From a bacterium (GTDB lineage: Bacteria > Patescibacteriota > Minisyncoccia > Minisyncoccales > CG1-02-41-26), in assembly GCA_043802745.1 (NCBI GenBank), contig JAZDKU010000006.1, positions 1 to 48,531 of the forward strand: 48,531 nucleotides of DNA, given 5' to 3'. A program made the translations under genes and the position numbers. How positions within the stretch are numbered: the stretch's first letter is position 1; the number at the start of each line of letters is the position of its first letter. Shown piece by piece: positions 8,890-36,847 of the stretch. Under the pieces are notes generated by a model. It was given only the letters and a program-made list of their open reading frames with translations. It did not search any database and had not been told where the DNA came from.

Positions 8890-9405
8890 TTATTTTAAAA
8901 ACTTCAAAGGCCAAAAAATAGCTACCCCTCCAGCTGAAGCCAAGGTTCTAACTGAAGATATTCTCCTAACACATCTGTCTGGCTTATCTTGAGAAATTCC
9001 GCTCATAGTCAAAGTGTCGCCATTGGCCATAGGACATTCAAAAGTTTTGTACTCCTCTATTAAATACCTTCCAGCAAAAGCAAGCCCAATTAAAAAATAA
9101 ATAATAACCACCCAAATTAAAATTTTCTTAAACTGTATTTTCATAATTTTTATTCCACTCTCCGCTTCTTTTTCCATTTTATCTAAGCGAGTATAGTAGT
9201 CTGAAATTTCTTTGAGATGCGCCCAAGCAATCTTGCCAGTCTTGGCTTCATCGTCATTGGTCACATTGGTTTGTGGGTCATGAGCTCCATGCTCCAACTC
9301 CACCCCCAACCCCATCCTAAACTCCTCCAAATCGTACTTGGTAAAATCCACCCCAATCCCCTCCCCTATTAATTTTGCCTCCTCTTGCGTAAATTTTTTA
9401 TTCAT
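8890..9405 (-). CDS. DUF5661-like domain fused to a TM helix and a C-terminal extension (paralogue A)
   Basis: The first ~83 aa are about 85% identical to ORF 12170..12424 (FTQEEAK.IG..IGVDF..YDLEEFR.GLGVELEHG...TNVTNDDEA.TGKIAWAHLKEI.DYYTRLDKMEKEAE). A TM helix follows (ILIWVVIIYFLIGLAF). The family name is from memory. Confidence 0.6.
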   Translation of the reverse strand: MNKKFTQEEAKLIGEGIGVDFTKYDLEEFRMGLGVELEHGAHDPQTNVTNDDEAKTGKIAWAHLKEISDYYTRLDKMEKEAESGIKIMKIQFKKILIWVVIIYFLIGLAFAGRYLIEEYKTFECPMANGDTLTMSGISQDKPDRCVRRISSVRTLASAGGVAIFWPLKFLK

Positions 9406-9424
9406 AGTTTTTTCTTTTTCTTAT

Positions 9425-10131: not shown

Positions 10132-10188
10132 TTAGCGAAGGCAGGTCTCCCTATTCGCCTCCTCCTGCGTAAATTTTTTGTTACTCAT
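10132..10188 (-). pseudogene. 5' remnant of a third DUF5661-like gene
   Basis: ATGAGTAACAAAAAATTTACGCAGGAGGAGGCGAAT encodes MSNKKFTQEEAN, matching the N-termini at 9405 and 12424. The frame then runs into a GC-rich hairpin element and stops after 18 codons. Confidence 0.55.
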
Positions 10189-10253
10189 AAGTTTTATTTT
10201 TTACTTTTTATTTTTTATTTTACCTAACCCCCCTAAAGAAATAAAGCTACCCC

Positions 10254-10574: not shown

Positions 10575-10581
10575 ATTTTTA

Positions 10582-11550
10582 TTATTTTTTCGCAATAAGA
10601 TTTAAAATTAAGCCAATAACTTTATCTTTTTCTTTCGTGTCGCTACAAGCAACAAGAATTGTTAATGCAGTAAGCGCAGAAGGAGTAAGCTTGGATACAT
10701 CTAAAATATTGGCTTGCTTTAAAAACCACACAAAAGCAAATGCTCCACTTCTTTTGTTGCCATCAACAAAAGGGTGATCTTTAATCATAAAATATAGAAG
10801 GTGAGCTGCTTTTTCCTCTGCGCTTTCGTATAGTTCCTTACCGCCAAAAGATTGCATCACATTGCCAATAATTCCTGCCACAAAACCCTCGCTTCTTTCT
10901 TTGCCAAAAATATCAGTTACTTCCGACCTACGCATAAGCTCTTCTTTTAACCCAGCTAAGCTTTTAGAAATTTTTTCTGTTGTTAATAAAACCTTTTTCT
11001 TTGTAAGCTTTCCTTTTGGTAAAACGCCTTTGTCATACGCATCAAGTGATAGCCAAGTATCAGCAAAAAGCGATACAAGTTCAACTGCGTCTTCTGCATC
11101 CACAACAGAGCCAGCTGGCAAAAGTTTTTTAATATCTTCCACCACGCTCAAGAACTGCGCGTAATTTTCCGAAATACGATTTTTATTGACCGCATATCCG
11201 TCAACAATATAACTTCGCAACGTTTTTGTTGCCCATTTTCTAAATTCTATTGCTACTTTTGAGTTTGTCCTATAACCAACTCCTAAAATAACATCCAGCG
11301 AATAGAGGATAATGGGCTTGTCAGAATTTGCAATATGCATTTTTTGCATATTGCTTTTTTTATCAATTTCACCATCCTTAAAAATATTATTAATATGTCG
11401 CGAAATAACCGATTGGTCAACGCCAAAAAGATTAACGATTTGCGCTTGTGTGGCCCATATTGTTTCACGCGAAAAATCCCCCCGAAGCTCAATGGCTCCT
11501 GACTTTGCTTGATAAATCACAACCTGCGATTTTTTATTACTTTTCTTCAT
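10582..11550 (-). CDS. RhuM-family N-terminal domain fused to a Fic/Doc domain (Doc-type motif)
   Basis: The N-terminus (WATQAQIVNLFGVDQSVISRHINNIF...GYRTNSKVAIEFRKWAT) is RhuM-like. The C-terminus carries HPFVDGNKRSG, the Doc-type variant (HxFxDGNKR) of the Fic motif. The ATG overlaps the HIT stop by 4 nt. Confidence 0.75.
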   Translation of the reverse strand: MKKSNKKSQVVIYQAKSGAIELRGDFSRETIWATQAQIVNLFGVDQSVISRHINNIFKDGEIDKKSNMQKMHIANSDKPIILYSLDVILGVGYRTNSKVAIEFRKWATKTLRSYIVDGYAVNKNRISENYAQFLSVVEDIKKLLPAGSVVDAEDAVELVSLFADTWLSLDAYDKGVLPKGKLTKKKVLLTTEKISKSLAGLKEELMRRSEVTDIFGKERSEGFVAGIIGNVMQSFGGKELYESAEEKAAHLLYFMIKDHPFVDGNKRSGAFAFVWFLKQANILDVSKLTPSALTALTILVACSDTKEKDKVIGLILNLIAKK

Positions 11551-12169: not shown

Positions 12170-12424
12170 CTACTCCCCTTCCGCTTCTTTTTCCATTTTA
12201 TCTAAGCGAGTGTAGTAATCTGGAATCTCTTTGAGATGGGCCCAGGCAATTTTGCCAGTCATTGCTTCATCGTCATTGGTAACATTGGTTTGTGTGTCGC
12301 AAAGCCCATGCTCCAACTCCACCCCCAAGCCCACCCTAAACTCCTCCAAATCATACACGCCAAAATCCACCCCTATCATATCCCCTATTACTTTCGCCTC
12401 CTCTTGTGTAAATTGTTTTTTCAT
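12170..12424 (-). CDS. DUF5661-like protein (paralogue B, domain only)
   Basis: 84 aa, about 85% identical to the N-terminal domain of 8890..9405. Confidence 0.6.
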   Translation of the reverse strand: MKKQFTQEEAKVIGDMIGVDFGVYDLEEFRVGLGVELEHGLCDTQTNVTNDDEAMTGKIAWAHLKEIPDYYTRLDKMEKEAEGE

Positions 12425-12440
12425 AAATAAAATGTTTTAG

Positions 12441-13218: not shown

Positions 13219-15510
13219 TTATAATTTCGAAACTTCGTTAATAATATTATCAATATTATTTTTCTCTACCCACATAAAATAATATCCTTTATTGCTCAAT
13301 TTTTGCCACATTTCGCCAGTTGCCTTTTTATAATCCGAATCTTCTGACCCCACCAAATGCTCACCCTTATATTCTAAAATGATATAATTCTCATCCTTTG
13401 TTTTCGCAATAAAATCCGGATAAAATTTTTGCTTTTTACATCCCTGAATAAAAAAACCGCCTATTTCTGGATTACGAAACCACCAATAAATGTTTTCAAG
13501 AGCGTTTAATTTACTCGCTAAATCTAACTCTTCTTTATTCATTTTGCCTGCTTTTTCGTACAGGTGTTTATCAAAGTTATCTGGAGAAACCTGCAGTAAA
13601 CTTATGTTATCGCCTAAATTAAAATTTTCACCATTAGAAACAACTGTCTGACCCTTAATCAACTCTTTAAACTTCTTCTCTGTTAGTTTGTCAACAATTT
13701 CATTAATTTTATTTTCAATAACTTCTTTAATTTGATATTGATGCCTGGCTACCTCGCTAAAAGTATACTGCGTCAATAATTTGTCTAAGATTCTTTTCAA
13801 AAAAACACTCACTTCATCAATAGCAATAAACCCCCGTTGAATTTTTATTCTAAACCAAGATAGTAAGTCATCTTTAGTAAAGTCCTTGCAATGATAGATA
13901 AGCCCCAACTTTCCGGCTGCGTCTCTTATTAACTCGCCTTTGTTGCCAATGTCAATTTTTAAAATTCTGTTATCTTCAACTAATTGAAAATCAACTGTTG
14001 CGTCTTGGTTTTTTAAAATAGCAACATCCCCAATCAAATCTGCCACATAATCTAACTTCCGCAAATTTTCTCCATCTTTAATATTTATAAAAGGAACAAC
14101 AATTTCTTTATCGTCAATTTTTCTTTTATATTCGTTAGCAATAATTGATACTCCATTTGCCATTGGCACAATATCCTCATAGCCATTTTCTTGCAACCCC
14201 TTAATAACCATCTCCGATGTTTGATTGAAATTTTGAGTAGAAGCGAAAATATAAGCGGAATTTAAAGCAGGGTCTTCTTTTTCTTCGGCGTTTGGTAAAC
14301 GCATAATTCGACCAATGGTCTGCTCCACCGATAGTCGCGCGCCTAAATTAGAAACAGACACCAACACATAGGCAAACGGACAATCCCAGCCCTCCCTTAA
14401 AGCATTGACCGTAATAATATAACGAATTGGGCAAGTTTTAGCCAAAAGTGTTTTCATATTTGGCAGTCCTCTCTTTTTTGCTGTTTGAATAGCAATTTGC
14501 TCTTCAGGTATGTTAGCTTCTTGCATTAAAAAATTCTTTATTCTTTCCACATAAACCCTATTGGCATTTTCTATGTCTTGCTCTGCTTGCAAAAGCATGA
14601 TGGGCCTAATATACTCGCCCTTGATTTTCTTGGCTCTTTTATCTAAATCGTTTAATTTTTCAATGCCTTCATAAATCGTTTCTTGCCACGGCGTTTTGTT
14701 AGCTAAATAAATCGGCATTTTTATCATTTTTGCCGCTTTCAATTCTTTGGCTGAAACATTAACTAACACATTACTTTGCCCTTTAGGCGTAGCGGTAAAT
14801 TCTAGAACAAACGACGGATTCAACCCCTTCAACATATCAAAAGAAAGCTCGGTTTGAACATTATGCCCCTCGTCCACAATCACTAACGGATTATGCAATT
14901 TAATAACATTGACTAAAGAATAGATAATTTCGCCTTCTTTATCCTTGTCTAAAAAATCAAAATCGGCACTATCAAGTCCTTCAAAATGTAACATTAAATC
15001 CCCATTATCTTGATACGCTTTAAGCCATTCTTTATCCGTTCGCCTAAAAGCGCCTAGGGTTGAAATAACAATGCAAAGATTATCCGTTAAATCATCTTTC
15101 TTAATCTTTTTGGCTTCGGCCAAATCAAAAACTTTTACCGCATTATTAAATCGTTCGTCCAAAACTTCCCGATAAGGGTGCTTGCGGTCGCGCAAATTGT
15201 TTAATGTCTGCGTTTTGATAGCATCGGACGGCACAAACCACATTGCCAAACCTTTGTCGCTTCTTTCAGCCAAGTAATCTTTAAAAATAATGCCCACAGA
15301 ATGGCTGGCAATCAAGGTTTTACCCCCACCTGTTGGCACTTTTATGCACACAAAAGGGCTTCGGCCAATCTCTGGCACCCAGTTATAATTTTTGTCAGTT
15401 CGTATCATAAAAGCCACCCCCGCCGCTTTTTCAGTGTCATACTTTTTCATTTCTGCTAAATATGTAGTCAACTCATCTAAAACTTTTTGTTGATATTTTT
15501 TTAATTGCAT
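13219..15510 (-). CDS. res: Type III restriction enzyme Res subunit (SF2 helicase plus endonuclease)
   Basis: VPTGGGKT (Walker A), VIVDEGHNV (DEAH-like), later helicase motifs (TVNALREGWD, QTIGRIMR) and a C-terminal PD-(D/E)xK-like YPDF...ILEYKG. The start is set at the ATG (MQLKKYQQ), because the track start at 15552 is a TTG. Confidence 0.85.
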   Translation of the reverse strand: MQLKKYQQKVLDELTTYLAEMKKYDTEKAAGVAFMIRTDKNYNWVPEIGRSPFVCIKVPTGGGKTLIASHSVGIIFKDYLAERSDKGLAMWFVPSDAIKTQTLNNLRDRKHPYREVLDERFNNAVKVFDLAEAKKIKKDDLTDNLCIVISTLGAFRRTDKEWLKAYQDNGDLMLHFEGLDSADFDFLDKDKEGEIIYSLVNVIKLHNPLVIVDEGHNVQTELSFDMLKGLNPSFVLEFTATPKGQSNVLVNVSAKELKAAKMIKMPIYLANKTPWQETIYEGIEKLNDLDKRAKKIKGEYIRPIMLLQAEQDIENANRVYVERIKNFLMQEANIPEEQIAIQTAKKRGLPNMKTLLAKTCPIRYIITVNALREGWDCPFAYVLVSVSNLGARLSVEQTIGRIMRLPNAEEKEDPALNSAYIFASTQNFNQTSEMVIKGLQENGYEDIVPMANGVSIIANEYKRKIDDKEIVVPFINIKDGENLRKLDYVADLIGDVAILKNQDATVDFQLVEDNRILKIDIGNKGELIRDAAGKLGLIYHCKDFTKDDLLSWFRIKIQRGFIAIDEVSVFLKRILDKLLTQYTFSEVARHQYQIKEVIENKINEIVDKLTEKKFKELIKGQTVVSNGENFNLGDNISLLQVSPDNFDKHLYEKAGKMNKEELDLASKLNALENIYWWFRNPEIGGFFIQGCKKQKFYPDFIAKTKDENYIILEYKGEHLVGSEDSDYKKATGEMWQKLSNKGYYFMWVEKNNIDNIINEVSKL

Positions 15511-15516
15511 ACTAGC

Positions 15517-15545
15517 TTGATTTTGATAGAAAAATGAATTATAAT
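15517..15545 (+). promoter_or_regulatory. sigma70-like promoter TTGATT-17-TATAAT facing the plus-strand ORF
   Basis: TTGATT at 15517-15522 and TATAAT at 15540-15545, 28 nt upstream of the ATG at 15573. Confidence 0.45.
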
Positions 15546-15572
15546 TACTCAAATTTAATTAATATTTTACCC

Positions 15573-15947
15573 ATGAAAGAAAATCTTTATCTTACAAAAA
15601 ATACAACCATCAATCACTATTCATTGCCTTATGACGCTCGTGGACTGGTAGTGAACATTTCTTCATATGCTATTAAGGCATTTGACGAAGTAGAAGAAAT
15701 TTGGACCGCTAAACCCATCGACTGGTTAAATTCCGAAGAAAGCTCTTTCCATTCATATTCGGAAGCACAAGACGCGTTTTTAATAAAAACGGATCTTTTC
15801 TTTGAAACATCATTATTGTCCAATGAACCCAATAAGATGTACGCTATCTCATTATCTGTCCTTACATTAACGGTGGATGATACAATTTCTGCTGTTGCAA
15901 ACGCCTTAGAATTTAACAACTACTTTTACCCAATTATTTTGGACTAA
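15573..15947 (+). CDS. hypothetical acidic protein (124 aa) encoded antisense between mod and res
   Basis: This is the only long open frame in the 433-nt mod-res gap. It has AT-rich third positions like the host genes and is preceded by a good promoter. Its stop overlaps the mod stop by 4 nt (convergent). No homology recognised. Confidence 0.45.
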   Translation: MKENLYLTKNTTINHYSLPYDARGLVVNISSYAIKAFDEVEEIWTAKPIDWLNSEESSFHSYSEAQDAFLIKTDLFFETSLLSNEPNKMYAISLSVLTLTVDDTISAVANALEFNNYFYPIILD

Positions 15948-17557
15948 TAAACTTTAACTTGATACGGTATTTGCTTGAAAACTATTTGGTGTTTTTCTAA
16001 AACTTCATCGTCTAATAAGCACTTGTCGGCATAGACAACCTTTTTGCCTACGGTTTTTTTAATTTCTTGTAAAAATTTTCTGTCTAAAATATTTTTGCCA
16101 ATGCCGTTAAAAAGCAAAAAATAATGGCTACTGCCAAATTCACCCAAGTAATTGCCTTTAATGTTTTTCTTTTCCAAATTGGTGCGAGTTTCGGTGAAAT
16201 AAACATATCTTGCCATATCGTCAAAGCTAACTGTTTTATTTATTGCGCCGTCTTTATCAAACAATGGCTCGCCAAGCTCTACGAACTCAAACCCGCCGCC
16301 AAGCCCTGCCACCTTTACCGTTTCCCCACTGCTTTTTTTATACGAATAGCCCTTGACCACTCTTTTTATTCTTTCGGCTGTGATATTTTTGGCAATATTT
16401 TTTTCTAGCTCTACCAAAATAAACTTTCTGTTGCCCCCGTCTTCTCTATTTAAATCTAAAACCGCATGCCCCGTCGTCCCCGACCCCGCAAAAGAATCTA
16501 GAATAATAGAATCCTTTCGACAAGTTAATTCAATTAAATATCGAACCAATAAATACGGTTTAGAATAATTAAAAATTTTTTTGCCAAAAATATTTTCTAA
16601 ATCTTTTGCAGCCATTGTGCTAGAAAACTTATTAATTACACCAAATGGGCGATTGGTTCTTTCTGTAATATTTCCATCATTATCAACATTAAAATATTGT
16701 TTTGTATAAACTGCCCATTTACCATTTTTATCTTTTTTTATTACCACAAAATCATTCTTTAATCCCCAAACGAGTTTCTTTTTTGACCATCTCCAACAGG
16801 CTCTCTTTTCACCATAACTTGGATAAATAAAAGTATTCTCTGGCGACTTTATAGGATAATCCAACGATTTTCCATATTGTATACTTGCACTATTTAATTT
16901 CACTAACTGATATTTTCCTCTCACACTAACCCATTTATCTTTTAAAGAATACCTGTCTTCATCCTCAACCTCAATGCCCTTAATCAGCAACAATTCCTTG
17001 TTTCTTGCATAGGTTAAAATATATTCATGCTTTATTTTAAAGTATTTACTATCTGAACTTCCACCACCCTCTTTATTCTCCCAAACAATTTTCGCAACAA
17101 AATTATCTTCACCAAAAATATCACCCATTAATAATCGTAAATGATGAACCTCGTTATCATTAATACTTATAAAAATAACGCCGTCGTCACTTAATAATTC
17201 CCGCAATAATTTTAACCGCGGATACATCATACAAAGCCACTTATCGTGACGACATAAATCCTCACCTTCGGGACCGACAGTTTTTCTAAACCATTCGGCG
17301 ATTTTCGGCGAATTTACCCTGTCGTTATAAACCCATTTTTCATTGCCAGTATTATAGGGTGGGTCAATATAAATACACTTTATTTTGTTGTAATAAAAAG
17401 GCATCAAGGCCTTTAACGCCTCTAAATTGTCGCCCTCCAAAATTAAATTTTCGCTCTCTCCAAGCGAATAAGTTTTGTTTTTCTTAAGCAACCGAAAAGC
17501 TACATCCTTATCATGATTAACAATTTTCTCTTTTCCTATCCAATTTAATGTGGGCAT
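15944..17557 (-). CDS. mod: Type III restriction-modification DNA methyltransferase (Mod)
   Basis: IYIDPPYNTGNE (motif IV) lies N-terminal to LDSFAGSGTTGHA (motif I), with a long variable region between them. This is the beta-class order typical of Type III Mod. Confidence 0.85.
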   Translation of the reverse strand: MPTLNWIGKEKIVNHDKDVAFRLLKKNKTYSLGESENLILEGDNLEALKALMPFYYNKIKCIYIDPPYNTGNEKWVYNDRVNSPKIAEWFRKTVGPEGEDLCRHDKWLCMMYPRLKLLRELLSDDGVIFISINDNEVHHLRLLMGDIFGEDNFVAKIVWENKEGGGSSDSKYFKIKHEYILTYARNKELLLIKGIEVEDEDRYSLKDKWVSVRGKYQLVKLNSASIQYGKSLDYPIKSPENTFIYPSYGEKRACWRWSKKKLVWGLKNDFVVIKKDKNGKWAVYTKQYFNVDNDGNITERTNRPFGVINKFSSTMAAKDLENIFGKKIFNYSKPYLLVRYLIELTCRKDSIILDSFAGSGTTGHAVLDLNREDGGNRKFILVELEKNIAKNITAERIKRVVKGYSYKKSSGETVKVAGLGGGFEFVELGEPLFDKDGAINKTVSFDDMARYVYFTETRTNLEKKNIKGNYLGEFGSSHYFLLFNGIGKNILDRKFLQEIKKTVGKKVVYADKCLLDDEVLEKHQIVFKQIPYQVKVY

Positions 17558-17572
17558 AAATTATTGTCTGTT

Positions 17573-18211
17573 TTATTTCAGTGTTCCTTCAATCGAGTTT
17601 ATCCTACCACCGAGGTTATTAATTAAATTATTAGTTGTTGTAGTGTAATTACTAAATTTTTCGTTCACCTTTTCGTCGGTCCATTTTTCAAATTCTTCAG
17701 CAAACTCGATATTACTTGGCAATGGATTGAATTTTTTATTTAAACCAAAACCCACCGTAAAAATAGCTAACAAAAATAAAAAACAAATGGCTAATAAAAT
17801 TTCGTCAAAAGAAATTCTTTCCCACCACTTTTTTTTCTCGCTATTCCCTGTTTGTCTACTGCGAAATAATACTATATGAATTAAAACCAAAAATATAATG
17901 AGACAGATCAATATTATCAACAAAACAAGAATCGCAGAAAAAAGATCGGAAATTCTTGCAAAAACTTGTATGCTTGCTGAGATAAAAGTAAAAAGCGATA
18001 TATAGATACCCAGCACCTCAAGGAGTTTAAGTTGCTTGCTTTCCATCTTTTCTTCCATATATCTTTTTAACTCATCAAGCATCTCTGTCCTAAGTTTATC
18101 TGGAATAATATCACCTTGAGAATTAGATGGTAAAATAGTGTCCCCTTCCGTAGTAGTGTTCCCTTCCGTCTGTGTTGTTTCAGATTGAATCTTTTTCTTC
18201 TTAATTGTCAT
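17573..18211 (-). CDS. membrane protein (212 aa): Thr-rich N-terminus, about 3 TM helices, helical C-terminus
   Basis: Hydrophobic segments are GIYISLFTFISASIQVF, AILVLLIILICLIIFLVLIHIVLF and ILLAICFLFLLAIFTVGF. The ATG overlaps the upstream stop by 4 nt. Confidence 0.55.
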   Translation of the reverse strand: MTIKKKKIQSETTQTEGNTTTEGDTILPSNSQGDIIPDKLRTEMLDELKRYMEEKMESKQLKLLEVLGIYISLFTFISASIQVFARISDLFSAILVLLIILICLIIFLVLIHIVLFRSRQTGNSEKKKWWERISFDEILLAICFLFLLAIFTVGFGLNKKFNPLPSNIEFAEEFEKWTDEKVNEKFSNYTTTTNNLINNLGGRINSIEGTLK

Positions 18212-18597
18212 AAAGATTTTACTATCAACTTAATTTCTCCCAATTTTTGCTCGTTGACAAAAATTTTGACTCTATAGTCGTCAGGTTGCTCAAATGGAAT
18301 ATTGAAAAAACGAGATATAAAATTTATCTCGGCTTCATCTCTTGGAACGTCAAAAGAACTTGTATAGTCAGCTATTTTTTCGCCAGTACTTTTCTCTATA
18401 CTCACAACCCCTTTATAATTTCCCATTTTTTCAAAAGTTATATTCGCTACTACAATAATATGGGGGGTAAGTGCTGGGAACTTTTTCGCTGTTAATCTAT
18501 TAAAAATTTTTATAATACATAACTTTCCGCCTTCTTGGGTGGCAAAAGCATCTTCACAAATATGTAAAAAATTTAATTTTATATTTTTATTTGGCAT
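18208..18597 (-). CDS. small soluble hypothetical protein (129 aa), composition suggests beta-rich
   Basis: No catalytic motif. Tightly coupled to the genes on both sides. Confidence 0.5.
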   Translation of the reverse strand: MPNKNIKLNFLHICEDAFATQEGGKLCIIKIFNRLTAKKFPALTPHIIVVANITFEKMGNYKGVVSIEKSTGEKIADYTSSFDVPRDEAEINFISRFFNIPFEQPDDYRVKIFVNEQKLGEIKLIVKSL

Positions 18598-18620
18598 AAT
18601 TTTTAAAAAATTAAATATTT

Positions 18621-19655
18621 TTATTTCCAGCCTTGGCCGATGGGGCGGAAGGCCACTTGTTCTTGGGGTATTTGCATTGGGCCTTGAGGCGTTTGCTGGG
18701 TTACATTTACTTGTTGCTTTTTAAACTCAAGCATAAGTTCAAAGTAATTTGAGAATTTCGCGCTTTCAATAAAAGCAATCTTATAGCCCTTTTTATTTTG
18801 CATGGCATTTTGGCCAAGCTCATTTTCTGGATTCCACAAAACGCCAAGCTCCATCTCTTTAGCGTATTCCTCGTATAATTCCGTCATTGACATGGAAAGC
18901 TCATCCCCTGCCGAGGTTACTGCTTTTAGACCCAAATCATCTTTGGCTTCTTTGCGGCCAATAAAATACTGGTGAGAGTAAAGCTTTTCTGTAAAATAGT
19001 CCACAGCTTTTTCGATTTCGTCTTCTTTCATTGGCGATTTGTGGCTTTTTAGCAATCTCTTGGCTAAAATTCTAATTAAATTATGAGTACGGTTAACATT
19101 GCCCAAAGCTAAGGGGTGAATTTGCGGATTGGCCTCAACGAATTTGCCAAAAATTTTAGCAAGTTCAGCGTCATCTTTTATACCAAATTTATTTTTAGCT
19201 AAATCAAAATAAGCCATAACATCTTCTACGGAGATGGGAATTTTGTTTTGCGGACTTTGTGGGTCCGATGGGTTAAAAACATTAGCAGTTGATGGGTCAA
19301 TTGGGGAAAGTTCTGACAAGTCGCTCATTATAATTTCATCCGCCCCCAAAGAAATCATGGTGGCAGCTGAATGGGCTTTATACGGAATTAAAACTGAAAA
19401 TTTATCGCAGTATTCCCTAATCATTGAAACCAAACGCCATGGCACCATTGTGTCTCCGCCCGATGAATGTAAAAACAAATCAATGTTTTCAGTTTTGCCA
19501 ATGGCCCGCAAATGTTTACTAATTATTGGCACAATATCCATAGCAATTCTAGCTGAGGGAGTACCTGGGGCGCCTTGCCTGTCGCTGGTTAAATAAGTAA
19601 TAACCCGCGAATTTCTTAATTTTTCAATTTTTTGTATAAGTTGTTGTTTATCCAT
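18621..19655 (-). CDS. ClpP/crotonase-fold serine protease of the SDH (serine dehydrogenase proteinase, S49-related) type
   Basis: IDLFLHSSGGDTMVPWRLVSMIREYCDKFSVLIPYKAHSAATMISLGADEIIM...LSPIDPS matches the lhtpGG...AmSagTliaLaADeIvM...iDP pattern of that family. Confidence 0.6.
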   Translation of the reverse strand: MDKQQLIQKIEKLRNSRVITYLTSDRQGAPGTPSARIAMDIVPIISKHLRAIGKTENIDLFLHSSGGDTMVPWRLVSMIREYCDKFSVLIPYKAHSAATMISLGADEIIMSDLSELSPIDPSTANVFNPSDPQSPQNKIPISVEDVMAYFDLAKNKFGIKDDAELAKIFGKFVEANPQIHPLALGNVNRTHNLIRILAKRLLKSHKSPMKEDEIEKAVDYFTEKLYSHQYFIGRKEAKDDLGLKAVTSAGDELSMSMTELYEEYAKEMELGVLWNPENELGQNAMQNKKGYKIAFIESAKFSNYFELMLEFKKQQVNVTQQTPQGPMQIPQEQVAFRPIGQGWK

Positions 19656-19706
19656 ATTTTTATTGTTATTGCTGTTATATTAGCTTATTTACTGCAACTT
19701 TTCAAA

Positions 19707-19756
19707 TTAAAGTTTCTCCAATTCTGTGTATTTAGTGGCGTTGCCTTGGGATTTTT
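19707..19756 (-). repeat. MazG-tail module, copy A (encodes SQGNATKYTELEKL-stop)
   Basis: About 48 nt, roughly 80% identical to 20285-20332 and 21927-21974. Confidence 0.8.
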
Positions 19757-20288
19757 TTATTGTGGCTTTGATGAATGAGTCCTTCTGGGCGGTGTATGTG
19801 TAGCGGTCATTTTTATATTTTTTGGCCAGCTTTTCTTTTAATTCGTTGTACTCTTTAATGGCTTCCTTATGCTTTCGCAAATAATCCCTAAAAAGTACGC
19901 AATCCTTCCACATTCGGCTGTTTAGTTTGGTTATGTGGATATAGTGAGTCCTACTACTTTCGCTACCTTTGGCGAAAAAACGCTGGCCTTTTATCCCCAC
20001 GTTATATTTATACTCATAGCCCAATTGTGTAAGGGCGTCAATGCATTTTTCAGCATTTTTTAAATTTATAACACCAATAGCTATATCAATTATGGGCTTG
20101 GCTTTAGCCCCTGGAATAGAAGTGCTTCCAACATGCTGTATGTCTAAAATATATTTGCCAATTGCCGAGTAAAGAAGTTTTGCCTCTTTTTGATATAACT
20201 TCTGCCATGCGGGATTATAGGGAAGTAACTCAACTTTTTTTCTTTGCAAACCGATAATTTTACGACTTTGAGCGGTTTCCTTTGTCAT
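19707..20288 (-). CDS. GrpB-family nucleotidyltransferase-fold protein
   Basis: VELLPYNPAW and IQHVGSTSIPGAKAKPIIDIAIGV are GrpB hallmarks. The start is set at 20288, giving an ATGA overlap with the AbiEii stop. The C-terminal 15 aa belong to the shared tail module. Confidence 0.8.
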   Translation of the reverse strand: MTKETAQSRKIIGLQRKKVELLPYNPAWQKLYQKEAKLLYSAIGKYILDIQHVGSTSIPGAKAKPIIDIAIGVINLKNAEKCIDALTQLGYEYKYNVGIKGQRFFAKGSESSRTHYIHITKLNSRMWKDCVLFRDYLRKHKEAIKEYNELKEKLAKKYKNDRYTYTAQKDSFIKATIKKSQGNATKYTELEKL

Positions 20289-20332
20289 ATCTTCTCTAAT
20301 TCTGTCCATTTTTTTGCATTGCCTTTGGATTT
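20285..20332 (-). repeat. MazG-tail module, copy B (encodes SKGNAKKWTELEKI-stop)
   Basis: See 21927-21974. Confidence 0.8.
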
Positions 20333-21103
20333 TTTAATTTCATCAAAGGGCAGGCTGTTTATCATTTTTTCAATTTCTTTATCGTCTATAAAGCGAGAAT
20401 AATGTATTTGGTTCATTTCCGCCTCTTTTTGTGTGCCAATGATTGCCCAATTATTTTTAATGCTTGCTTTGGCAATGCTCTGGCGAATCTCTTTTTGTTT
20501 AACATAGCCAACAATTTCATCAAGATTGAGCTGATACTTTTCTAAAATTAAAAACAAATCATAAAAATCACGGTAGCGCGCTCTATCGCTCATAGCGCGA
20601 ATTTTTTCGGCAGCGATTTCTTTAATATCCATAACCTTAACAGAAAAATCAACACCCCAAACATTATCGTATTTTAGCTCTTTTGCTGGCAGTAAAACAT
20701 TTTGCAAATAATCTATTTCCACTTTCAAAAAATTTGGCAAGGCAAGTGGCCCGTTGTACTGCAACTTTTCAATTTTTATGGTGGCAGGGGAAAAATAATC
20801 TTTTTTAATACTTAAATAATCCTCGCCAACAAAAATTTGCCTTGTCTCATCCAAACTAACAGATTTTCGCTTGGATGAAAAATCTAAATCTTCGGAAAAA
20901 CGAAGCTGTTCTAAATAGCAGTGGTATAAAGCAGTGCCACCCTTAAATACCAAATCATTTTTTAAAGCTGATTCAGTGATTATCTTTAAAACTATAGCCA
21001 AAAAATAATCCTTTTCCGCGATATGCAAAGGATATTTTAAGGTCTTTCTGTTTATAATTTCTAATTGCTGCCTACTTATCATATTTGTCAAAATGTTCAT
21101 CAT
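20285..21103 (-). CDS. abiEii: AbiEii/AbiGii-family nucleotidyltransferase toxin
   Basis: EKDYFLAIVL and LVFKGGTALYHCYLEQLRFSEDLDF are AbiEii hallmarks. The start is uncertain (ATGs at 21142, 21103, 21100 and 21082) and overlaps the AbiEi 3' end. Confidence 0.8.
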   Translation of the reverse strand: MMNILTNMISRQQLEIINRKTLKYPLHIAEKDYFLAIVLKIITESALKNDLVFKGGTALYHCYLEQLRFSEDLDFSSKRKSVSLDETRQIFVGEDYLSIKKDYFSPATIKIEKLQYNGPLALPNFLKVEIDYLQNVLLPAKELKYDNVWGVDFSVKVMDIKEIAAEKIRAMSDRARYRDFYDLFLILEKYQLNLDEIVGYVKQKEIRQSIAKASIKNNWAIIGTQKEAEMNQIHYSRFIDDKEIEKMINSLPFDEIKKSKGNAKKWTELEKI

Positions 21104-21863
21104 AATACAAACGCCATTTGGCATTAAATTTTTTATCGCCAAGTAACATCCGATGGGTGCTGTGTTTAATTTTTATAGAATTTTCCGCCAAACGATAAAT
21201 ATCCACAGAGTCAATCTTTAATAAATCAAAAATAAAGCCAAATGTTTTAATGGTTGCTTGGGAAAATTCTTTCAGATATTCAGCTAATCGCGCTAAATCT
21301 AAACTATGCTTATGTTCTGCAAGCTTTTCAATAACCAAATCAACGGCATATTTACTTTTGCGAAAATTAATTATATCAATCAAGGCCTTTTCAGCTGTGG
21401 CAATGCGAGTAGCTTTGTTGTCTATTATTTCTTCCTGAAAGCCAAAGAAAAGCTTTTCTTTAGTTTGGATAAAACTATATTCCGTGTTATTAAGTAAAAC
21501 AGTTTTAAATTTCTTAAGCGAAACAGATATTGTTTTGCCAGCTAACTGGTCAAACATACCATAGTATTGCAAAGCTGATTCAAAAGAAACATAGGAATCT
21601 TTAACCAAAAGCCCAGCTACCGTGTAAAACGACAACGATAAAAACCCCCGATTGCTTAAATCCGAAATAGCGTAAAGCCCATTCTTGATGCGCATAAGCC
21701 AGCCGTTTTTAACCAGTTTGGTAATAAGATTTTTGGTTTGTTGATAATCCCAGCTTTCTTTAGCTTGGCTAAAAATATCTTGGGAAGTTATAATCTGACC
21801 ATGTTTTACTATTAGCTGCTCTAAAAGCTCACTTTGTTTTGTTGATAAAATTGTGTAATTCAT
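21072..21863 (-). CDS. abiEi: AbiEi-like antitoxin / transcriptional regulator
   Basis: N-terminal winged-helix-like region ending in GWLMRIKNGLYAI (compare G.l.rl.rGlY). It is 263 aa long and sits directly upstream of AbiEii. Confidence 0.65.
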   Translation of the reverse strand: MNYTILSTKQSELLEQLIVKHGQIITSQDIFSQAKESWDYQQTKNLITKLVKNGWLMRIKNGLYAISDLSNRGFLSLSFYTVAGLLVKDSYVSFESALQYYGMFDQLAGKTISVSLKKFKTVLLNNTEYSFIQTKEKLFFGFQEEIIDNKATRIATAEKALIDIINFRKSKYAVDLVIEKLAEHKHSLDLARLAEYLKEFSQATIKTFGFIFDLLKIDSVDIYRLAENSIKIKHSTHRMLLGDKKFNAKWRLYYDEHFDKYDK

Positions 21864-21926
21864 ATATTAAAAGTAATCAATGCTTATTACTTCATACACA
21901 TATAATACACTAATATATGCAAATAA

Positions 21927-21974
21927 TCAAAATTTCTCTAATTCTGTGTATTTTTTGGCATTGCCTTTGGATTT
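21927..21974 (-). repeat. MazG-tail module, copy C (native; encodes SKGNAKKYTELEKF-stop)
   Basis: Plus strand: tcaaaatttctctaattctgtgtattttttggcattgcctttggattttt. Confidence 0.8.
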
Positions 21975-22286
21975 TTCAACGGGGTATTTTTGCTCGTTCT
22001 TTATGATTTTTTTGTCTAGGGCATCTAAAATATCAATTTCTAAATCGTGGCTCATTAGCAAAACCCAAAACAAAACATCCGCCAATTCTTCGCCTATTTC
22101 GGCTCTGTTTGTTTGCACATATTTGGCCATTTCTTCGGTGTTTTTCCACTGGAAATGCTCCATCACCTCCCCTGCTTCTAAAACAAGCGAAAGCGACAGG
22201 TCTTTTGGATTGTGAAACTGTTTCCAATCCCGCGCGTCTCGCAAGTCAATTATTCTTTTGGTTAAATTTTCAATGTTGTTGTCCAT
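21927..22286 (-). CDS. MazG-like (dCTPase-type) nucleotide pyrophosphohydrolase
   Basis: LVLEAGEVMEHFQW ... IGEELADVLFWVLLMS ... KNEQKYPVEKSKGNAKKYTEL. Both the EExxE/ExxD helices and the KYP...KKYTEL tail are native to this family. Confidence 0.8.
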   Translation of the reverse strand: MDNNIENLTKRIIDLRDARDWKQFHNPKDLSLSLVLEAGEVMEHFQWKNTEEMAKYVQTNRAEIGEELADVLFWVLLMSHDLEIDILDALDKKIIKNEQKYPVEKSKGNAKKYTELEKF

Positions 22287-22303
22287 AATTTTCTATTTTT
22301 TTG
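22250..22303 (-). repeat. direct repeat: MazG 5' end plus proximal upstream sequence (functional copy)
   Basis: cgcaagtcaattattcttttggttaaattttcaatgttgttgtccata...ttctat is repeated at 23051-23115 with a few mismatches or indels. Confidence 0.8.
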
Positions 22304-22350
22304 CCCTTGACAAACAGGTTTTAAGTTTGCTATTATATAAATACAAATCC

Positions 22351-23031
22351 TCATCGGATGGGTGCTTGCACCGGTTCATGAGGTTTTTTGTTTTTATTGG
22401 TAAAAATCATTGCCTTTGCCTCTTTCCAATTTAGCAACTGTTCGCTGATAATTTTACCCTTGATAAGATTATAAAATTTTTCATTTTTTCCCGTATACTT
22501 CCAAAGTAAACTCCCCGCTACCATATCCGCTGAATTTATCTCGGGATTATCCACGCTACTCAAATGCTTCAAAATAAACGGCTCGCCTAGTAATTCAAGC
22601 AATGTCTCGTTAAATTTTATCAAATCGTCTTTTTGTTGAAAATGCTTATCAAAAATCACTTCTTTAATTTTAACATCTTGATAAAAAACCAAACACTCTT
22701 TTAGTAAAATATAGGCAAGCAAAGCAAAATTATCGGGCGTGTCCTTTATGCTTTGGTTGTTCTTTTCAATAATTAAAGCGAAAATATTTACATCAGCCAA
22801 AGATAGCTCTTTTAGATAAACAGCTTTTGTGCGTTCGCCCGCTTTATAAAATTTAACTTCGGAAACAGCCTTTTCTTTTTTATCACATGCCATGCTCTTT
22901 CTTGCTTTTTTCAACACAGACAAAAGAACTTCTTGGGCATTAACTCCCACAGCAGCCATAATAATCACTTTATCTTTTGGATCAGGTAAAGTTCCCGATT
23001 CGTCTATCAAAATAGAAATTTTTTGGTCCAT
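22351..23031 (-). CDS. DUF3800 domain protein
   Basis: The N-terminal ILIDESGT and the later NSADMVAGSL resemble the DUF3800 pattern. 226 aa. Confidence 0.55.
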   Translation of the reverse strand: MDQKISILIDESGTLPDPKDKVIIMAAVGVNAQEVLLSVLKKARKSMACDKKEKAVSEVKFYKAGERTKAVYLKELSLADVNIFALIIEKNNQSIKDTPDNFALLAYILLKECLVFYQDVKIKEVIFDKHFQQKDDLIKFNETLLELLGEPFILKHLSSVDNPEINSADMVAGSLLWKYTGKNEKFYNLIKGKIISEQLLNWKEAKAMIFTNKNKKPHEPVQAPIR

Positions 23032-23037: not shown

Positions 23038-23097
23038 TTATAGTTTATCGCGCAAGTCAATTATTCTTTTGGTTAAATTTTCAATATTGTTGTCCAT
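23038..23097 (-). pseudogene. orphan duplicate of the MazG 5' end (19 codons then stop)
   Basis: It encodes MDNNIENLTKRIIDLRDKL-stop. The first 17 aa are identical to the start of 21927..22286. Confidence 0.75.
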
Positions 23098-23115
23098 ATT
23101 TTTCTATCTTTTACT
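23051..23115 (-). repeat. direct repeat: MazG 5' end (orphan copy)
   Basis: Pairs with 22250-22303. The two copies bracket the DUF3800 gene. Confidence 0.8.
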
Positions 23116-33556: not shown

Positions 33557-33630
33557 TGGGCGTGCGTGGATTCGAACCACGGACCTTCGCTTTATCAGAG
33601 CGACGCTCCAACCAACTGAGCTACACGCCC
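33557..33630 (-). tRNA. tRNA-Ile (anticodon GAU)
   Basis: GGGCGTGTAGCTCAGTTGGTTGGAGCGTCGCTCTGATAAAGCGAAGGTCCGTGGTTCGAATCCACGCACGCCCA has a perfect 7-bp acceptor stem and a CTGATAA anticodon loop. No CCA is encoded. Confidence 0.9.
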
Positions 33631-33673: not shown

Positions 33674-33714
33674 GTCCCGCCGAAGCCTTGGCGTAGGCGG
33701 ACTACTTTGTTCTC

Positions 33715-33773: not shown

Positions 33774-33774
33774 T

Positions 33775-36804: not shown

Positions 36805-36847
<43 letters not shown>

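What the first reader, a model, noticed from the sequence alone, without database searches (positions are those of the whole stretch)
19707..21974. Three consecutive, unrelated genes end in the same ~48-nt in-frame module encoding (S)(K/Q)GNA(K/T)K(Y/W)TELEK(F/I/L)-stop
The three C-termini are:
- MazG-like (21927..22286): KYPVEKSKGNAKKYTELEKF
- AbiEii (20285..): IKKSKGNAKKWTELEKI
- GrpB (19707..): IKKSQGNATKYTELEKL

The DNA is about 80% identical over ~48 nt. The KYP...KKYTEL tail is native to dCTPase-type MazG proteins but foreign to the AbiEii and GrpB families.

Two hypotheses follow:
- Cassettes (AbiEi-AbiEii, GrpB) were inserted serially into the 3' end of MazG, each regenerating the target. 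The module would then act as an att-like or recombination site.
- The peptide is a shared functional tag, such as a degron or docking motif. A ClpP-fold protease gene lies immediately downstream, at 18621..19655.

The reading frame is preserved in all three copies, which an untranslated att scar would not require.
Basis: partly seen in the sequence, partly recalled or inferred. Interest (0 to 1): 0.75.

Follow-up and report, generated by a model that had tools for sequence, protein, structure and literature searches.

The report
MazG gene-end repeats bounding defence cassettes
The shared "tail" is the last ~50 bases of a MazG-like gene, copied as DNA to the 3' boundaries of neighbouring toxin-antitoxin/defence gene cassettes in a hypervariable island of a Patescibacteria (CPR) genome; it is a recombination footprint, not a protein tag.

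Summary
Three ~50-nt copies (75-87% identical) end the MazG-like, AbiEii and GrpB genes in frame; none occurred in 100 shuffles.

The tail is native to MazG-like proteins. Canonical AbiEii (~251 aa) and GrpB (~178 aa) lack it; only their closest relatives carry it.

In six related CPR assemblies the same module (T) occurs about 25 times, together with copies of the MazG 5' end (H) and its upstream region. These pieces sit between different cassettes: AbiE, GrpB, DUF3800, Fic, TPR, RadC, RM and others. T is often frameshifted, internally deleted or untranslated, has no fold, and shows no link to the SDH/ClpP-like protease.

Its left junction always falls in a Lys-codon A-run, which accounts for much of the frame preservation. 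Within this window H also flanks DUF3800, and a DUF5661 gene head is repeated around two further cassettes, so the process is not T-specific. No recombinase is encoded anywhere in the window.

Best reading: cassettes were gained and shuffled by recombination that duplicates neighbouring gene ends ("insertion with long target duplication"), followed by microhomology deletions. The serial-insertion idea is partly right. The degron idea is not supported. An integron-like system acting in trans is not excluded.

The parts
21927..21979 (-). T1: module at the native 3' end of the MazG-like gene (EKSKGNAKKYTELEKF*). Its stop codon TGA lies inside the promoter-like -35 box (TTGATT-17-TATTAT) of the AbiE unit.
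20285..20337 (-). T2: module fused in frame to the AbiEii 3' end at an A-run. Its stop overlaps the GrpB start (ATATGA). It is the TGG ('W') variant, the same variant seen after AbiEii in L001, L002, L025 and L054.
19707..19759 (-). T3: module fused in frame to the GrpB 3' end at an A-run. It shares the derived TCC-CAA (S-Q) with the GrpB-linked copy in L054 and is followed by the conserved leader of the SDH protease gene.
21927..22286 (-). MazG-like NTP pyrophosphohydrolase (119 aa), the source of the H and T sequences.
21072..21863 (-). AbiEi antitoxin gene. With AbiEii and the leader at 21864-21926 it forms the AbiE unit, which recurs in the window, L001, L002, L025 and L178.
20285..21082 (-). 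AbiEii toxin gene (265 aa as called in the database). The last 16 codons (KKSKGNAKKWTELEKI) come from T2.
19707..20288 (-). GrpB gene (start MTKETAQ...). The last ~17 codons are T3.
22237..22301 (-). H: the 5' end of MazG (ribosome-site region plus 17 codons); one arm of the 65-nt direct repeat around DUF3800.
   Evidence: (D3)
23048..23112 (-). H copy (94% identical), giving a 19-codon stub ORF MDNNIENLTKRIIDLRDKL* (23038-23097) immediately upstream of DUF3800.
   Evidence: (D3)
22351..23031 (-). DUF3800 gene, the cassette bracketed by the two H copies.
22302..22350 (-). P element: the MazG upstream region (…TAGCAAACTTAAAACCTGTTTGTCAAGGGC plus an A-run; promoter-like TTGTCA-17-AATTAT). In L025, L001 and L176 it recurs joined directly to T, or in L176 to a T remnant.
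18621..19706 (-). SDH/ClpP-like protease gene and its leader (19656-19706). The same leader and gene follow a T in L002. Not functionally tied to the tail.
12180..12425 (-). Second case of the same architecture: a 246-nt copy (87%) of the DUF5661 gene head (84-aa ORF 12170-12424), upstream of the HIT / Fic-RhuM / MazG-like-2 genes.
10154..10206 (-). Short (53-nt) third copy of the DUF5661 head, between the MazG-like-2 gene and DUF6688.
8890..9406 (-). Full DUF5661 gene, whose head is the repeated sequence.

Best explanation
The three modules are DNA copies of the last ~45-50 nt of the MazG-like gene (T). They mark the 3' boundaries of gene cassettes in a hypervariable toxin-antitoxin/defence island of a Patescibacteria chromosome. 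In the window the island lies between the MS-channel gene and the YgjP-like gene.

**How it most likely arose and works**
1. Cassettes were gained next to or inside the strongly conserved MazG gene. The recombination involved duplicates the neighbouring gene end: 'insertion with long target duplication', meaning single-crossover or unequal recombination on short homology with the other joint at a microhomology.
2. Redundant MazG copies were then eroded by deletions between A-runs. This left isolated T, H, P-T and H-T 'mini-MazG' remnants.
3. Each cassette now carries a T at its 3' end (AbiEi-AbiEii·T, GrpB·T). These units are inherited and re-assorted among related genomes, with T (and H) probably serving as short portable homology.
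4. The in-frame fusions are largely a by-product. T begins with GAA AAA|TCC. AbiEii and GrpB natively end in Lys-Lys codons (…AAA AAA|TAA, …AAA AAA|GCC), so joints in phase-matched A-runs keep the frame. There may also be weak selection to end upstream translation right at the next start, as in the ATGA overlap with GrpB.
5. No recombinase is encoded locally.

**Shown:** the repeats, their origin in MazG, their recurrence at cassette boundaries in relatives, frame loss, A-run junctions, absence of structure, absence of a local recombinase, and parallel duplications of other gene ends.

**Inferred:** the recombination pathway, the order of events, and the role of T as homology for exchange.
For: **Origin in MazG.** The tail is conserved in 120 MazG-like homologues. 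It is absent from typical AbiEii and GrpB, whose median lengths are 252 and 178 aa.

**Recurrence at boundaries.** A profile search finds about 25 T copies in related loci (Wrc [the window, reverse-complemented], L001, L002, L025, L052, L054, L076/L126, L174), plus H copies. Arrangements include:
- L025: P·T | AbiE·T | BRO-like | H-filler-T | orf255 | P·T | DUF3800 | H·T | hsdM
- L054: AbiEii·T | TPR | H·T·GrpB·T | orf178 | T | RadC
- L052: H·T | Fic | MazG·T
- L001: H stub | NYN-S49 | 3' half of T | AbiE·T | H-filler-T | LexA-like

**Same chromosomal site.** The window and L001 share both flanks (Band_7/Gmad2/MS channel and YgjP/MliC) but differ in island content.

**DNA level, not peptide level.**
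- A 1-nt deletion frameshifts T after AbiEii in L001 and L054.
- The tails of P0009 and P0015 match T read in the +1 frame.
- T is untranslated at L025:89 and L054:3328, with half copies at L001:6093 and in L002.
- L176 and P0122 show internal deletions; GN->PP and other non-conservative changes occur.

**Junctions.** Every left junction falls in an A-run. Right-end variants travel with the downstream unit: NNTTGA|TTATTT before AbiE in four loci, ATATGA before GrpB in two.

**Not T-specific.** A 65-nt H repeat surrounds DUF3800. The DUF5661 head is repeated three times around two more cassette groups.

**No structure, no recombinase.** Single-strand DNA folding of T and of H·T gives z-scores near 0. 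No integrase or transposase is found among the window ORFs of at least 100 aa that were scanned, nor in the Pfam listings of related loci.

**Precedent.** RM systems flanked by repeats longer than 30 bp (for example 46 bp) that overlap 3' gene ends, without mobility genes, mostly in naturally competent species (PMC2853133).
Against: - No strictly isogenic 'empty site' was recovered. The comparisons are between genomes only 78-89% identical at the DNA level in shared segments, so the order of events is inferred.
- T copies are now 75-95% identical, too diverged for efficient RecA recombination today.
- Ten of 14 full non-MazG T copies, including all three independent H|T junction types, are read in the MazG frame. 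This exceeds the one-third expected by chance and is only partly explained by A-run phasing.
- T copies far outnumber full MazG genes in these loci. In relatives T is followed by a conserved TAAAGAGTATAAT(5-8 nt)ATG element in front of many unrelated genes. This looks more like a dedicated junction element than a random remnant.
- A recombinase acting in trans cannot be excluded from one 48-kb window and partial contigs.
Confidence: 0.6

Rival explanations
1. T, or T plus the downstream TAAAGAGTATAAT...ATG element seen in relatives, is the recombination site of an integron-like or accretion-type cassette system. A site-specific recombinase encoded elsewhere (chromosome, plasmid or phage) captures and shuffles ORF-sized cassettes, each carrying its site at the 3' end.
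For: - Arrays of same-orientation cassettes are separated by one ~45-70-nt element, with 3-5 copies in L025 and L054.
- T travels with the upstream gene, as attC does. All five AbiEii-linked copies are the TGG variant, whatever lies downstream.
- The boundary is sharp, right after GAGAAA.
- T copies outnumber full MazG genes.
- The same cassette (AbiE) sits in different neighbourhoods.
Against: - No recombinase is found in the window or in any related locus (and the locus tables).
- T lacks dyad symmetry and any stable single-strand fold.
- Left junctions lie at A-run microhomologies, and truncated copies are variable.
- Other, unrelated sequences (H, the DUF5661 head, a 120-nt hp85+T repeat in L002) are duplicated around cassettes in the same way.
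- T was not found in IMG/VR contigs.
- AbiE homologues at 85% DNA identity (L178) and 79% protein identity (L185) lack T on both sides.
Confidence: 0.17
2. T persists because it is an expression signal. Its 3' half plus the following -10 box would form a promoter for (leaderless) transcription of the next gene, and its stop codon would place translation termination next to the downstream start (coupling). Selection for these signals, not the mechanism of recombination, would explain why MazG heads and tails survive deletions and stay in frame.
For: - In relatives, T is followed by TAAAGAGTATAAT with the ATG only 5-8 nt after the -10 box, in front of at least 8 different genes.
- TGGACA in T lies 18-19 nt upstream of that -10 box (one search reports TGGACA-18-TATTAT at L025 4326-4355).
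- In the window, the T1 stop lies within TTGATT-17-TATTAT of AbiE, and T3 is directly followed by TTGAAA-17-TAATAT.
- The GrpB ATG overlaps the T stop in the window and in L054.
- All three H|T mini-ORF junction types are in frame.
Against: - Promoter-like hits are no more frequent than in shuffles in the window (20 found against 18.8 expected).
- The spacing to TGGACA is usually 19 nt, which is suboptimal.
- None of the three window copies carries the -10 element.
- This explains retention, not how the copies arose, so it complements the best explanation rather than replacing it.
- No transcript data exist.
Confidence: 0.15
3. The peptide (S)KGNAKK(Y/W)TELEK is a shared functional tag (degron or docking motif), for example for the adjacent SDH/ClpP-like protease, selected at the protein level on three different proteins.
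For: - All three window copies are in frame, with Y/W and F/I/L replacements that look conservative.
- Third codon positions change most among non-MazG copies (25 against 15 and 12).
- Most full copies in relatives are translated in the MazG frame.
Against: - Frameshifted, other-frame, internally deleted and untranslated copies exist in close relatives.
- Non-conservative changes occur: GN->PP, K->Q, K->T, T->K.
- Y/W is a polymorphism already present among bona fide MazG alleles (P0242 has W), so the third-position excess can be inherited from MazG.
- The last residue is set by the downstream DNA and is P, A, S, V or absent elsewhere.
- Typical AbiEii and GrpB proteins lack the tail.
- An SDH-type protease is absent from the sequenced parts of most T-bearing loci, and here it is just the next unit after a T.
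- DNA identity of 75-95%, including silent sites, indicates common descent, not convergence.
Confidence: 0.05
4. Assembly artefact or chance: strain-mixture contigs joined falsely at a shared repeat, or a fortuitous low-complexity match.
For: In the Gribaldobacteria MAG a contig begins inside a T copy (L076) and a T lies near the end of the L126 stretch, showing that T can fragment assemblies.
Against: - The copies differ at 13-25% of positions, and the longest shared exact blocks are 14-19 nt, too short to mis-join contigs.
- The same architecture appears in independent assemblies from NCBI, JGI, ENA and Logan.
- Zero hits in 100 shuffles.
Confidence: 0.02

Closest known systems
Insertion with long target duplication of restriction-modification/defence genes (Kobayashi group; Furuta et al. 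2010, PMC2853133)
   Same: - Defence-type genes with no mobility gene, flanked by direct repeats much longer than transposon target duplications (>30 bp, typically ~46 bp up to several hundred).
- The repeats are often the 3' end of a neighbouring gene.
- Repeat length is variable; seen mostly in naturally competent species.
- Here the repeats are 45-50 nt (T), 65 nt (H), 53-246 nt (DUF5661 head) and ~120 nt (L002).
   Different: - Here several cassettes in a row share the same repeat.
- The repeat has spread or been retained as about 25 copies across related genomes.
- It is fused to the cassette ORFs.
- The target gene has decayed to mini-gene remnants.
- The cargo is toxin-antitoxin or small defence-island genes in a CPR bacterium.
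- No isogenic empty site was available.
Tandem accretion of integrative elements at an att site in the 3' end of a gene (ICE/IME/CIME arrays; tRNA-proximal islands and tycheposons of Prochlorococcus) - from my own knowledge
   Same: - Arrays of cargo modules separated by repeated copies of the target gene's 3' end.
- The gene is regenerated at one side.
- Recombinase-less modules sit between repeats.
   Different: - Those systems depend on a tyrosine or serine integrase present in at least one element, with a defined core.
- None is found here.
- 5' gene ends and other genes are duplicated here too.
Integron gene cassettes with attC sites
   Same: - Same-orientation, mostly single-gene cassettes.
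- A short site at each cassette's 3' end travels with it.
- Cargo is rich in toxin-antitoxin and defence genes.
   Different: - No IntI or attI.
- T has no imperfect-palindrome hairpin.
- T is a fragment of a protein-coding gene.
- Junctions fall at A-run microhomologies.
C-terminal degradation tags (ssrA-type or intrinsic degrons recognised by Clp proteases)
   Same: A short C-terminal peptide shared by unrelated proteins, next to a Clp-fold protease gene.
   Different: - The peptide is not conserved independently of the DNA.
- The frame is lost in relatives.
- The tail does not co-occur with the protease.

Membership tests
Insertion with long target duplication (criteria of Furuta et al. 2010) | Inserted genes flanked by direct repeats longer than 30 bp | tested here: met
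   - T repeats of about 50 nt flank AbiE and GrpB.
- H repeats of 65 nt flank DUF3800.
- The DUF5661 head is repeated at 53-246 nt.

Insertion with long target duplication (criteria of Furuta et al. 2010) | The repeated sequence is single-copy at the uninterrupted site of a related genome | tested here: inconclusive
   - L050 and L174 have MazG with one H and one T.
- L002 has a T followed directly by the SDH leader, with no GrpB.
- L054 has H·T directly before GrpB, with no AbiE between.

These genomes are only 78-89% identical at the DNA level in shared segments, so they are not isogenic.
Insertion with long target duplication (criteria of Furuta et al. 2010) | No integrase, transposase or other mobility gene in or next to the insert; insert shorter than 20 kb | tested here: met
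   - Pfam scans of the window ORFs of at least 100 aa that were tested found only LAGLIDADG endonucleases, located in the rRNA intron region.
- Inserts are 0.6-3 kb.
Integron cassette array | Adjacent IntI-type tyrosine recombinase and attI | tested here: not met
   No Phage_integrase-type hit in the window or in the Pfam tables of related loci.
Integron cassette array | attC: imperfect inverted repeats that fold as a single-strand hairpin | tested here: not met
   Single-strand DNA folds of T1-T3 and of an H·T unit give z-scores from +0.8 to -0.4 relative to shuffles.
Accretion of integrative elements (ICE/IME/CIME) at a gene 3' end | att direct repeats at every element boundary, derived from the target gene's 3' end | tested here: met
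Accretion of integrative elements (ICE/IME/CIME) at a gene 3' end | At least one element of the array, or the genome, encodes the cognate integrase; crossover occurs at a fixed core | tested here: inconclusive
   - No integrase is found locally.
- Whole genomes were not available.
- Truncated copies and left junctions vary, while the right boundary after GAGAAA is fairly constant.
Protein-level C-terminal tag / degron | Peptide conserved under purifying selection on each carrier, independent of DNA ancestry | tested here: not met
   - Frameshifts, other-frame reading, internal deletions, untranslated copies and non-conservative substitutions occur.
- The codon-position tally alone is not decisive.
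Protein-level C-terminal tag / degron | Co-occurrence of tagged proteins with the cognate protease | tested here: not met
   The sequenced parts of L001, L025, L052 and L054 carry T-ended ORFs but no SDH-type protease. L001 has an unrelated S49 peptidase.
MazG-like NTP pyrophosphohydrolase (PF12643) | C-terminal KYP..K.KG...KYxEL motif is part of the family domain | tested here: met
   - The Pfam match covers residues 33-116 of 119.
- The motif is present in the 120 homologues inspected.

The most novel reading that the evidence does not exclude
T, together with the conserved TAAAGAGTATAAT(5-8 nt)ATG element that follows it in relatives, is a dedicated ~70-nt junction element of an integron-like cassette array in Patescibacteria. 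The element would be exapted from the end of a housekeeping-type MazG gene. It would supply the stop for the upstream ORF, a promoter for leaderless expression of the downstream ORF, and the site at which ORF-precise defence or toxin-antitoxin cassettes are captured and shuffled. Capture would use either an unidentified trans-acting recombinase or the cell's competence and recombination machinery.
Probability: 0.17. Interest if true: 0.8.

Novelty: new variant of a known kind. Interest (0 to 1): 0.5.

Why it matters
CPR/Patescibacteria have tiny genomes, are thought to take up foreign DNA routinely, and have few recognised mobile elements. How their defence islands turn over is poorly understood.

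This locus shows a concrete, repeatable architecture. Small toxin-antitoxin and defence cassettes are delimited by duplicated ends of neighbouring genes, above all a very conserved MazG gene. There is no local recombinase, and the same cassettes are re-assorted among related genomes.

If general, this would extend the 'insertion with long target duplication' route, described for RM systems in competent bacteria, to other defence genes and to CPR. It would also give a simple sequence signature (repeated gene ends, mini-gene remnants) for finding cassette boundaries and new defence genes in uncultivated lineages.

There is a practical caution too: identical C-terminal peptides on neighbouring unrelated proteins can be recombination scars rather than functional tags.

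Tried and rejected
- **Metagenome-wide DNA scan** for the 3' half of T. 45 of 46 loci were chance matches; only L025 was real.
- **GTDB genome scan** for the 5' half of T. Only one related genome turned up, a Candidatus Gribaldobacteria MAG (L076/L126).
- **IMG/VR scans** for T and for T plus the -10 element: chance hits only.
- **Exact look-up of the window's MazG protein**: not on record. Contig look-ups were then exhausted, so no isogenic empty site could be sought.
- **Exact look-up of the mini-MazG peptides**: only the L001 one is in the collection, on one contig.
- **Rfam**: nothing at T, H or the L002 hairpin element, and no hit at all in 17-27 kb of the window even at E<=1.
- **Secondary structure of T** as an attC-like site: rejected.
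- **dN/dS-style codon-position tally**: third positions are enriched. This can be inherited from MazG alleles, so it does not discriminate between readings.
- **Nearest-neighbour analysis of T copies**: copies flanking one cassette are generally not each other's closest relatives. I therefore dropped the idea of recent in-situ duplication in this genome. I also dropped my earlier assumption that T3 is 'the original' MazG end.
- **Cassette versus flank divergence as a test for horizontal transfer**: the AbiE unit is 89% identical and the flanks 80-88%, which is not decisive.
- **dif/Xer-like or palindromic core in T**: by eye, only GGCAATGCC in two copies; most copies read GGCAACGCC. Not pursued.
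- **Literature searches** for CPR integrons or cassette systems found nothing relevant.

Full report
**1.

All genes in this part of the window are on the minus strand. In gene order they are as follows:
- a 19-codon stub at 23038-23097;
- DUF3800 (23031-22351);
- MazG-like PF12643 (22286-21927);
- AbiEi (21863-21072);
- AbiEii (21082-20285);
- GrpB (20288-19707);
- SDH/ClpP-like protease PF01972 (19655-18621);
- DUF6941, a membrane protein, and a Type III RM system.

The repeat finder reports three copies of a 53-nt sequence at 21927-21979, 20285-20337 and 19707-19759, at 87% and 75% identity to the middle copy. A degenerate 41-nt pattern covering the three copies hits three times in the window and never in 100 shuffles. 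Similarity begins at an A-run, (G/A)AAAAATCC, and ends at the stop codon. The flanks are unrelated. All three copies are read in the same frame.

I call this module T.

**2. Whose tail is it?**

The 120 best MazG-like homologues, nearly all 115-119 aa Patescibacteria proteins, carry ...KYPVEK(S/A)KG..(K)KY(T/N)(E/K)L, often followed by EKx. The Pfam model covers it. T is therefore the native MazG 3' end.

AbiEii homologues typically end ...LPF(D/T)EIKK* or ...LPFDAIDK* at about 251 aa. GrpB homologues typically end ...FIxGIIKKAEKG* at about 178 aa. Only the closest relatives (78-94% identity) carry T-derived tails, and these are irregular:

| Protein | Family | C-terminal tail | Reading |
|---|---|---|---|
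| P0002 | AbiEii | EKSKGNAKSGQN* | T with a 1-nt deletion |
| P0009 | AbiEii | KNPKATPKK... | matches T read in the +1 frame |
| P0015 | AbiEii | ...KNPKATLKSGQN* | matches T read in the +1 frame |
| P0007 | AbiEii | ...LSAKKHTESEKI | diverged, in frame |
| P0121 | GrpB | KKSQPPAKKWKELEK | in frame, GN->PP |
| P0122 | GrpB | KKSEAKHTELEKI | internal deletion |
| P0123 | GrpB | KKS\|TELEKY + read-through | internal deletion, stop lost |

**3. Related loci show what T is**

Contigs encoding these relatives were fetched from NCBI, JGI, ENA and Logan assemblies. One real hit from each of two DNA scans was added. They were mapped with blastn-short and an nhmmer profile of T.

About 25 T copies occur in these related loci. 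With them come copies of the first ~50-65 nt of MazG (H) and of the MazG upstream region (P...TAGCAAAYTTAAAA..GTTTGTCAAGGGC plus an A-run). Arrangements:

| Locus | Arrangement |
|---|---|
| L025 | P·T \| AbiEi-AbiEii·T \| BRO-like \| H'-filler-T \| orf255 \| P·T \| DUF3800 \| H·T \| hsdM |
| L054 | AbiEii·T \| TPR \| H·T fused to the GrpB start \| GrpB·T \| orf178 \| T \| RadC |
| L052 and the Gribaldobacteria MAG | H·T \| Fic \| full MazG·T \| SocA-Panacea/PemK |
| L001 | H stub \| NYN, S49 peptidase \| 3' half of T \| AbiE·T (frameshifted) \| H-filler-T (a 45-aa 'mini-MazG' ORF) \| LexA-like, RM... |
| L002 | MazG start stub + S49 3' remnant + an 85-nt hairpin element + 3' half of T \| AbiE with its own stop \| filler + 5' half of T + the same hairpin element + 3' half of T \| SDH protease |

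L050 and L174 have a plain Fic-MazG-helicase arrangement, with one H and one T.

The window and L001 share both flanks: 16S/tRNAs/Band_7/Gmad2/MS channel on one side and YgjP/MliC on the other. Their content between those flanks differs. This is therefore one chromosomal hotspot with variable cargo of toxin-antitoxin and defence genes.

**4. DNA scar or peptide?**

Several lines point to DNA:
- T is frameshifted after AbiEii in L001 and L054. It is untranslated at L025:89 and L054:3328, halved at L001:6093, split by an insertion in L002, and internally deleted in L176.
- Non-MazG copies carry GN->PP, K->Q, K->T and T->K.
- The Y/W difference that looked like conservative protein evolution is a polymorphism among genuine MazG alleles.
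- The last residue is set by whatever DNA follows. TTT-TGA is part of the AbiE promoter-like -35 box (TTGATT-17-TATTAT). ATA-TGA overlaps the GrpB start. Elsewhere the residue is P, A, S, V or absent.
- The protease is not a partner. Its conserved leader also follows a T in L002, and no SDH-type protease appears in the sequenced parts of L001, L025, L052 and L054.

A codon-position tally shows third positions changing most: 25 changes against 15 at first and 12 at second positions, with 19 synonymous and 23 non-synonymous codon differences. Such variation can be inherited from MazG alleles, so I do not count it either way.

**5. How the junctions look**

Every left junction of T lies in an A-run. 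The partners natively end in A-runs:
- AbiEii: ...GAA ATT AAA AAA TAA (compare L178 and L002);
- GrpB: ...ATA AAA AAA GCC (compare L175);
- P: ...GGGCAAAAAAA.

T itself begins GAA AAA TCC. In all of these the run ends at a codon boundary, so a joint guided by the run keeps the frame.

The explanation is not complete. Ten of 14 full non-MazG copies, and all three independent H|T junction types, are in frame. Some selection may act, for example to end upstream translation right before the next start, as in the ATGA overlap with GrpB.

The right end of T varies with the downstream unit: NNTTGA|TTATTT before AbiE in four loci, ATATGA before GrpB in two. The bulk of T, including the Y/W site, goes with the upstream gene: all five AbiEii-linked copies are the TGG type. 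A 'cassette' is thus leader plus gene(s) plus T.

In relatives T is usually followed by TAAAGAGTATAAT, then 5-8 nt, then ATG, in front of many unrelated genes. This motif is absent from the window.

**6. Not specific to T**

In the window, a 65-nt copy of the MazG head (94% identical) lies upstream of DUF3800, so DUF3800 is bracketed by H repeats.

Ten kilobases away, the head of a DUF5661 gene occurs three times: 9161-9406, 12180-12425 (246 nt, 87%) and 10154-10206. These copies bracket {HIT, Fic/RhuM, a second MazG-like gene} and {DUF6688}. In L002 the repeat around AbiE is about 120 nt (hairpin element plus half of T).

Variable-length duplications of whatever gene end is adjacent argue against a recombinase that recognises T. 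T and H·T have no single-strand structure. No integrase, transposase or resolvase is found among the window ORFs scanned or in the Pfam tables of the related loci. T is absent from IMG/VR.

**7. Mechanism proposed**

The pattern matches 'insertion with long target duplication', described for RM systems. There, inserts without mobility genes are flanked by repeats longer than 30 bp (for example 46 bp), often overlapping a gene's 3' end, mostly in naturally competent bacteria (PMC2853133).

I propose the following, which is inferred rather than shown:
- Cassettes enter or move by recombination anchored on short homology in the very conserved MazG gene, with the other joint at a microhomology. 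This duplicates the anchor.
- L052 (H·T | Fic | MazG, compared with Fic | MazG in L050 and L174) shows that whole MazG units were duplicated and then lost their interior.
- L001 shows a MazG interior replaced by NYN-S49 between an H stub and the 3' half of T.
- Further A-run deletions fused T to AbiEii and GrpB.

T copies are old or exchanged, not recent. Nearest relatives of most copies lie in other genomes. The AbiEii·T and GrpB·T fusions each appear to have arisen once and travelled with their cassette. The window's three copies are therefore an assembly of T-ended cassettes, not three fresh insertions into this MazG.

**8. What remains open**

- No isogenic empty site could be obtained.
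- T copies greatly outnumber full MazG genes.
- The conserved T plus -10 element in relatives looks like a purpose-built junction.

An integron-like system with a trans-acting recombinase is not excluded (about 0.17). Retention of T as an expression signal is also not excluded, and may well act together with the recombination explanation. The tag/degron reading is unlikely (about 0.05). An assembly artefact is very unlikely, since the copies are diverged and independent assemblies agree.

**9. Verdict**

The serial-insertion interpretation is partly supported, and the degron interpretation is not supported.

The feature is a new variant of a known kind: long direct repeats of a neighbouring gene's end delimiting mobile defence cassettes. 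Here it is multiplied into arrays and fused to the cassette ORFs in a CPR lineage related to a Candidatus Gribaldobacteria MAG.

Interest is moderate (0.5). It would be considerably higher if T plus the -10 element proved to be a dedicated cassette-capture site.

Noticed in passing
window 8890-9406, 10154-10206, 12170-12425 (minus strand): The 5' part of a DUF5661 gene is present three times: the full gene, a 53-nt stub, and a 246-nt copy (87%) forming an 84-aa ORF. The copies bracket HIT / Fic-RhuM / PRA-PH (a second MazG-like gene) and DUF6688. This is the same 'duplicated gene end around cassettes' architecture as at MazG.
   Followed up: partly
window 10254-11550 (minus strand); also L050, L052, L174, L178: Fic-family genes sit directly upstream of a MazG-type pyrophosphohydrolase, both in the window (Fic/RhuM + PRA-PH) and in relatives (Fic + MazG-like, stop/start nearly abutting). 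This may be a conserved two-gene module (toxin plus NTP-PPase). In L178 Fic is followed by AbiE with no MazG.
   Followed up: no
L002 7098-7175 and 8888-8965: An ~85-nt element with two strong hairpins (…TTTTTACGGTCGCCTAAGGCGACCTAAAATCCCCGTTTA.A.CATAATATGCTT.AAACCC). Single-strand fold z-scores are -4.7 and -6.4. It is inserted in the middle of T on both sides of the AbiE unit. It has no Rfam match and was not seen in the other loci.
   Followed up: partly
L025 1-53 (minus strand): Match to the Rfam DUF3800-II RNA motif (45.8 bits against a gathering score of 43.2), cut by the contig end, in an island that also carries a DUF3800 gene. No such match lies near the window's DUF3800 gene.
   Followed up: partly
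L001 7747-7776; L025 1775-1795, 2515-2535, 3442-3461, 4346-4364; L054 959-982, 2771-2791, 3368-3395; L175 ~7950-7974; L176 ~9985-10003 and ~10960-10984: A conserved junction motif TAAAGAGTATAAT with the start codon only 5-8 nt after the -10-like box, in front of many unrelated genes. This suggests leaderless transcripts. The motif is absent from the window (no GAGTATAAT before any ATG).
   Followed up: partly
window 33630-37066 (minus strand): A 16S rRNA gene (35676-37066) is followed by a group-II-intron D1-D4 match (35322-35403) and two LAGLIDADG endonuclease ORFs (34815-35378, 33963-34601), before the sequence that in L001 directly adjoins the 16S 3' end and the two tRNAs. This looks like an intron/homing-endonuclease insertion near the 3' end of the rRNA gene, as often reported for CPR.
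   Followed up: no
L001 7774-7911; L025 2382-2516 and 4242-4346; L052 5035-5139; L054 2094-2198: Open 'mini-MazG' ORFs of 34-45 aa (MazG N-terminal ~12-19 residues joined to the C-terminal ~17), with three different junction types, all in frame. It is unknown whether these are translated peptides with a role or merely tolerated remnants.
   Followed up: partly
window 18208-19655 and 13219-17557 (minus strand): The SDH/ClpP-like protease is followed by a DUF6941 protein and a membrane protein, possibly an uncharacterised three-gene unit with no PADLOC match. A complete Type III RM system (mod 15944-17557, res 13219-15552) follows.
   Followed up: no
L175 7880-7975; proteins P0008, P0010, P0012, P0014: A second, unrelated family of extensions on close AbiEii homologues (…PTSKLTRRAQAKKY*, …SPTPKILRRV*, …LSTRRAKARRC*). 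In L175 it lies between AbiEii and GrpB where the window has T. This may be another junction sequence read in different frames.
   Followed up: no
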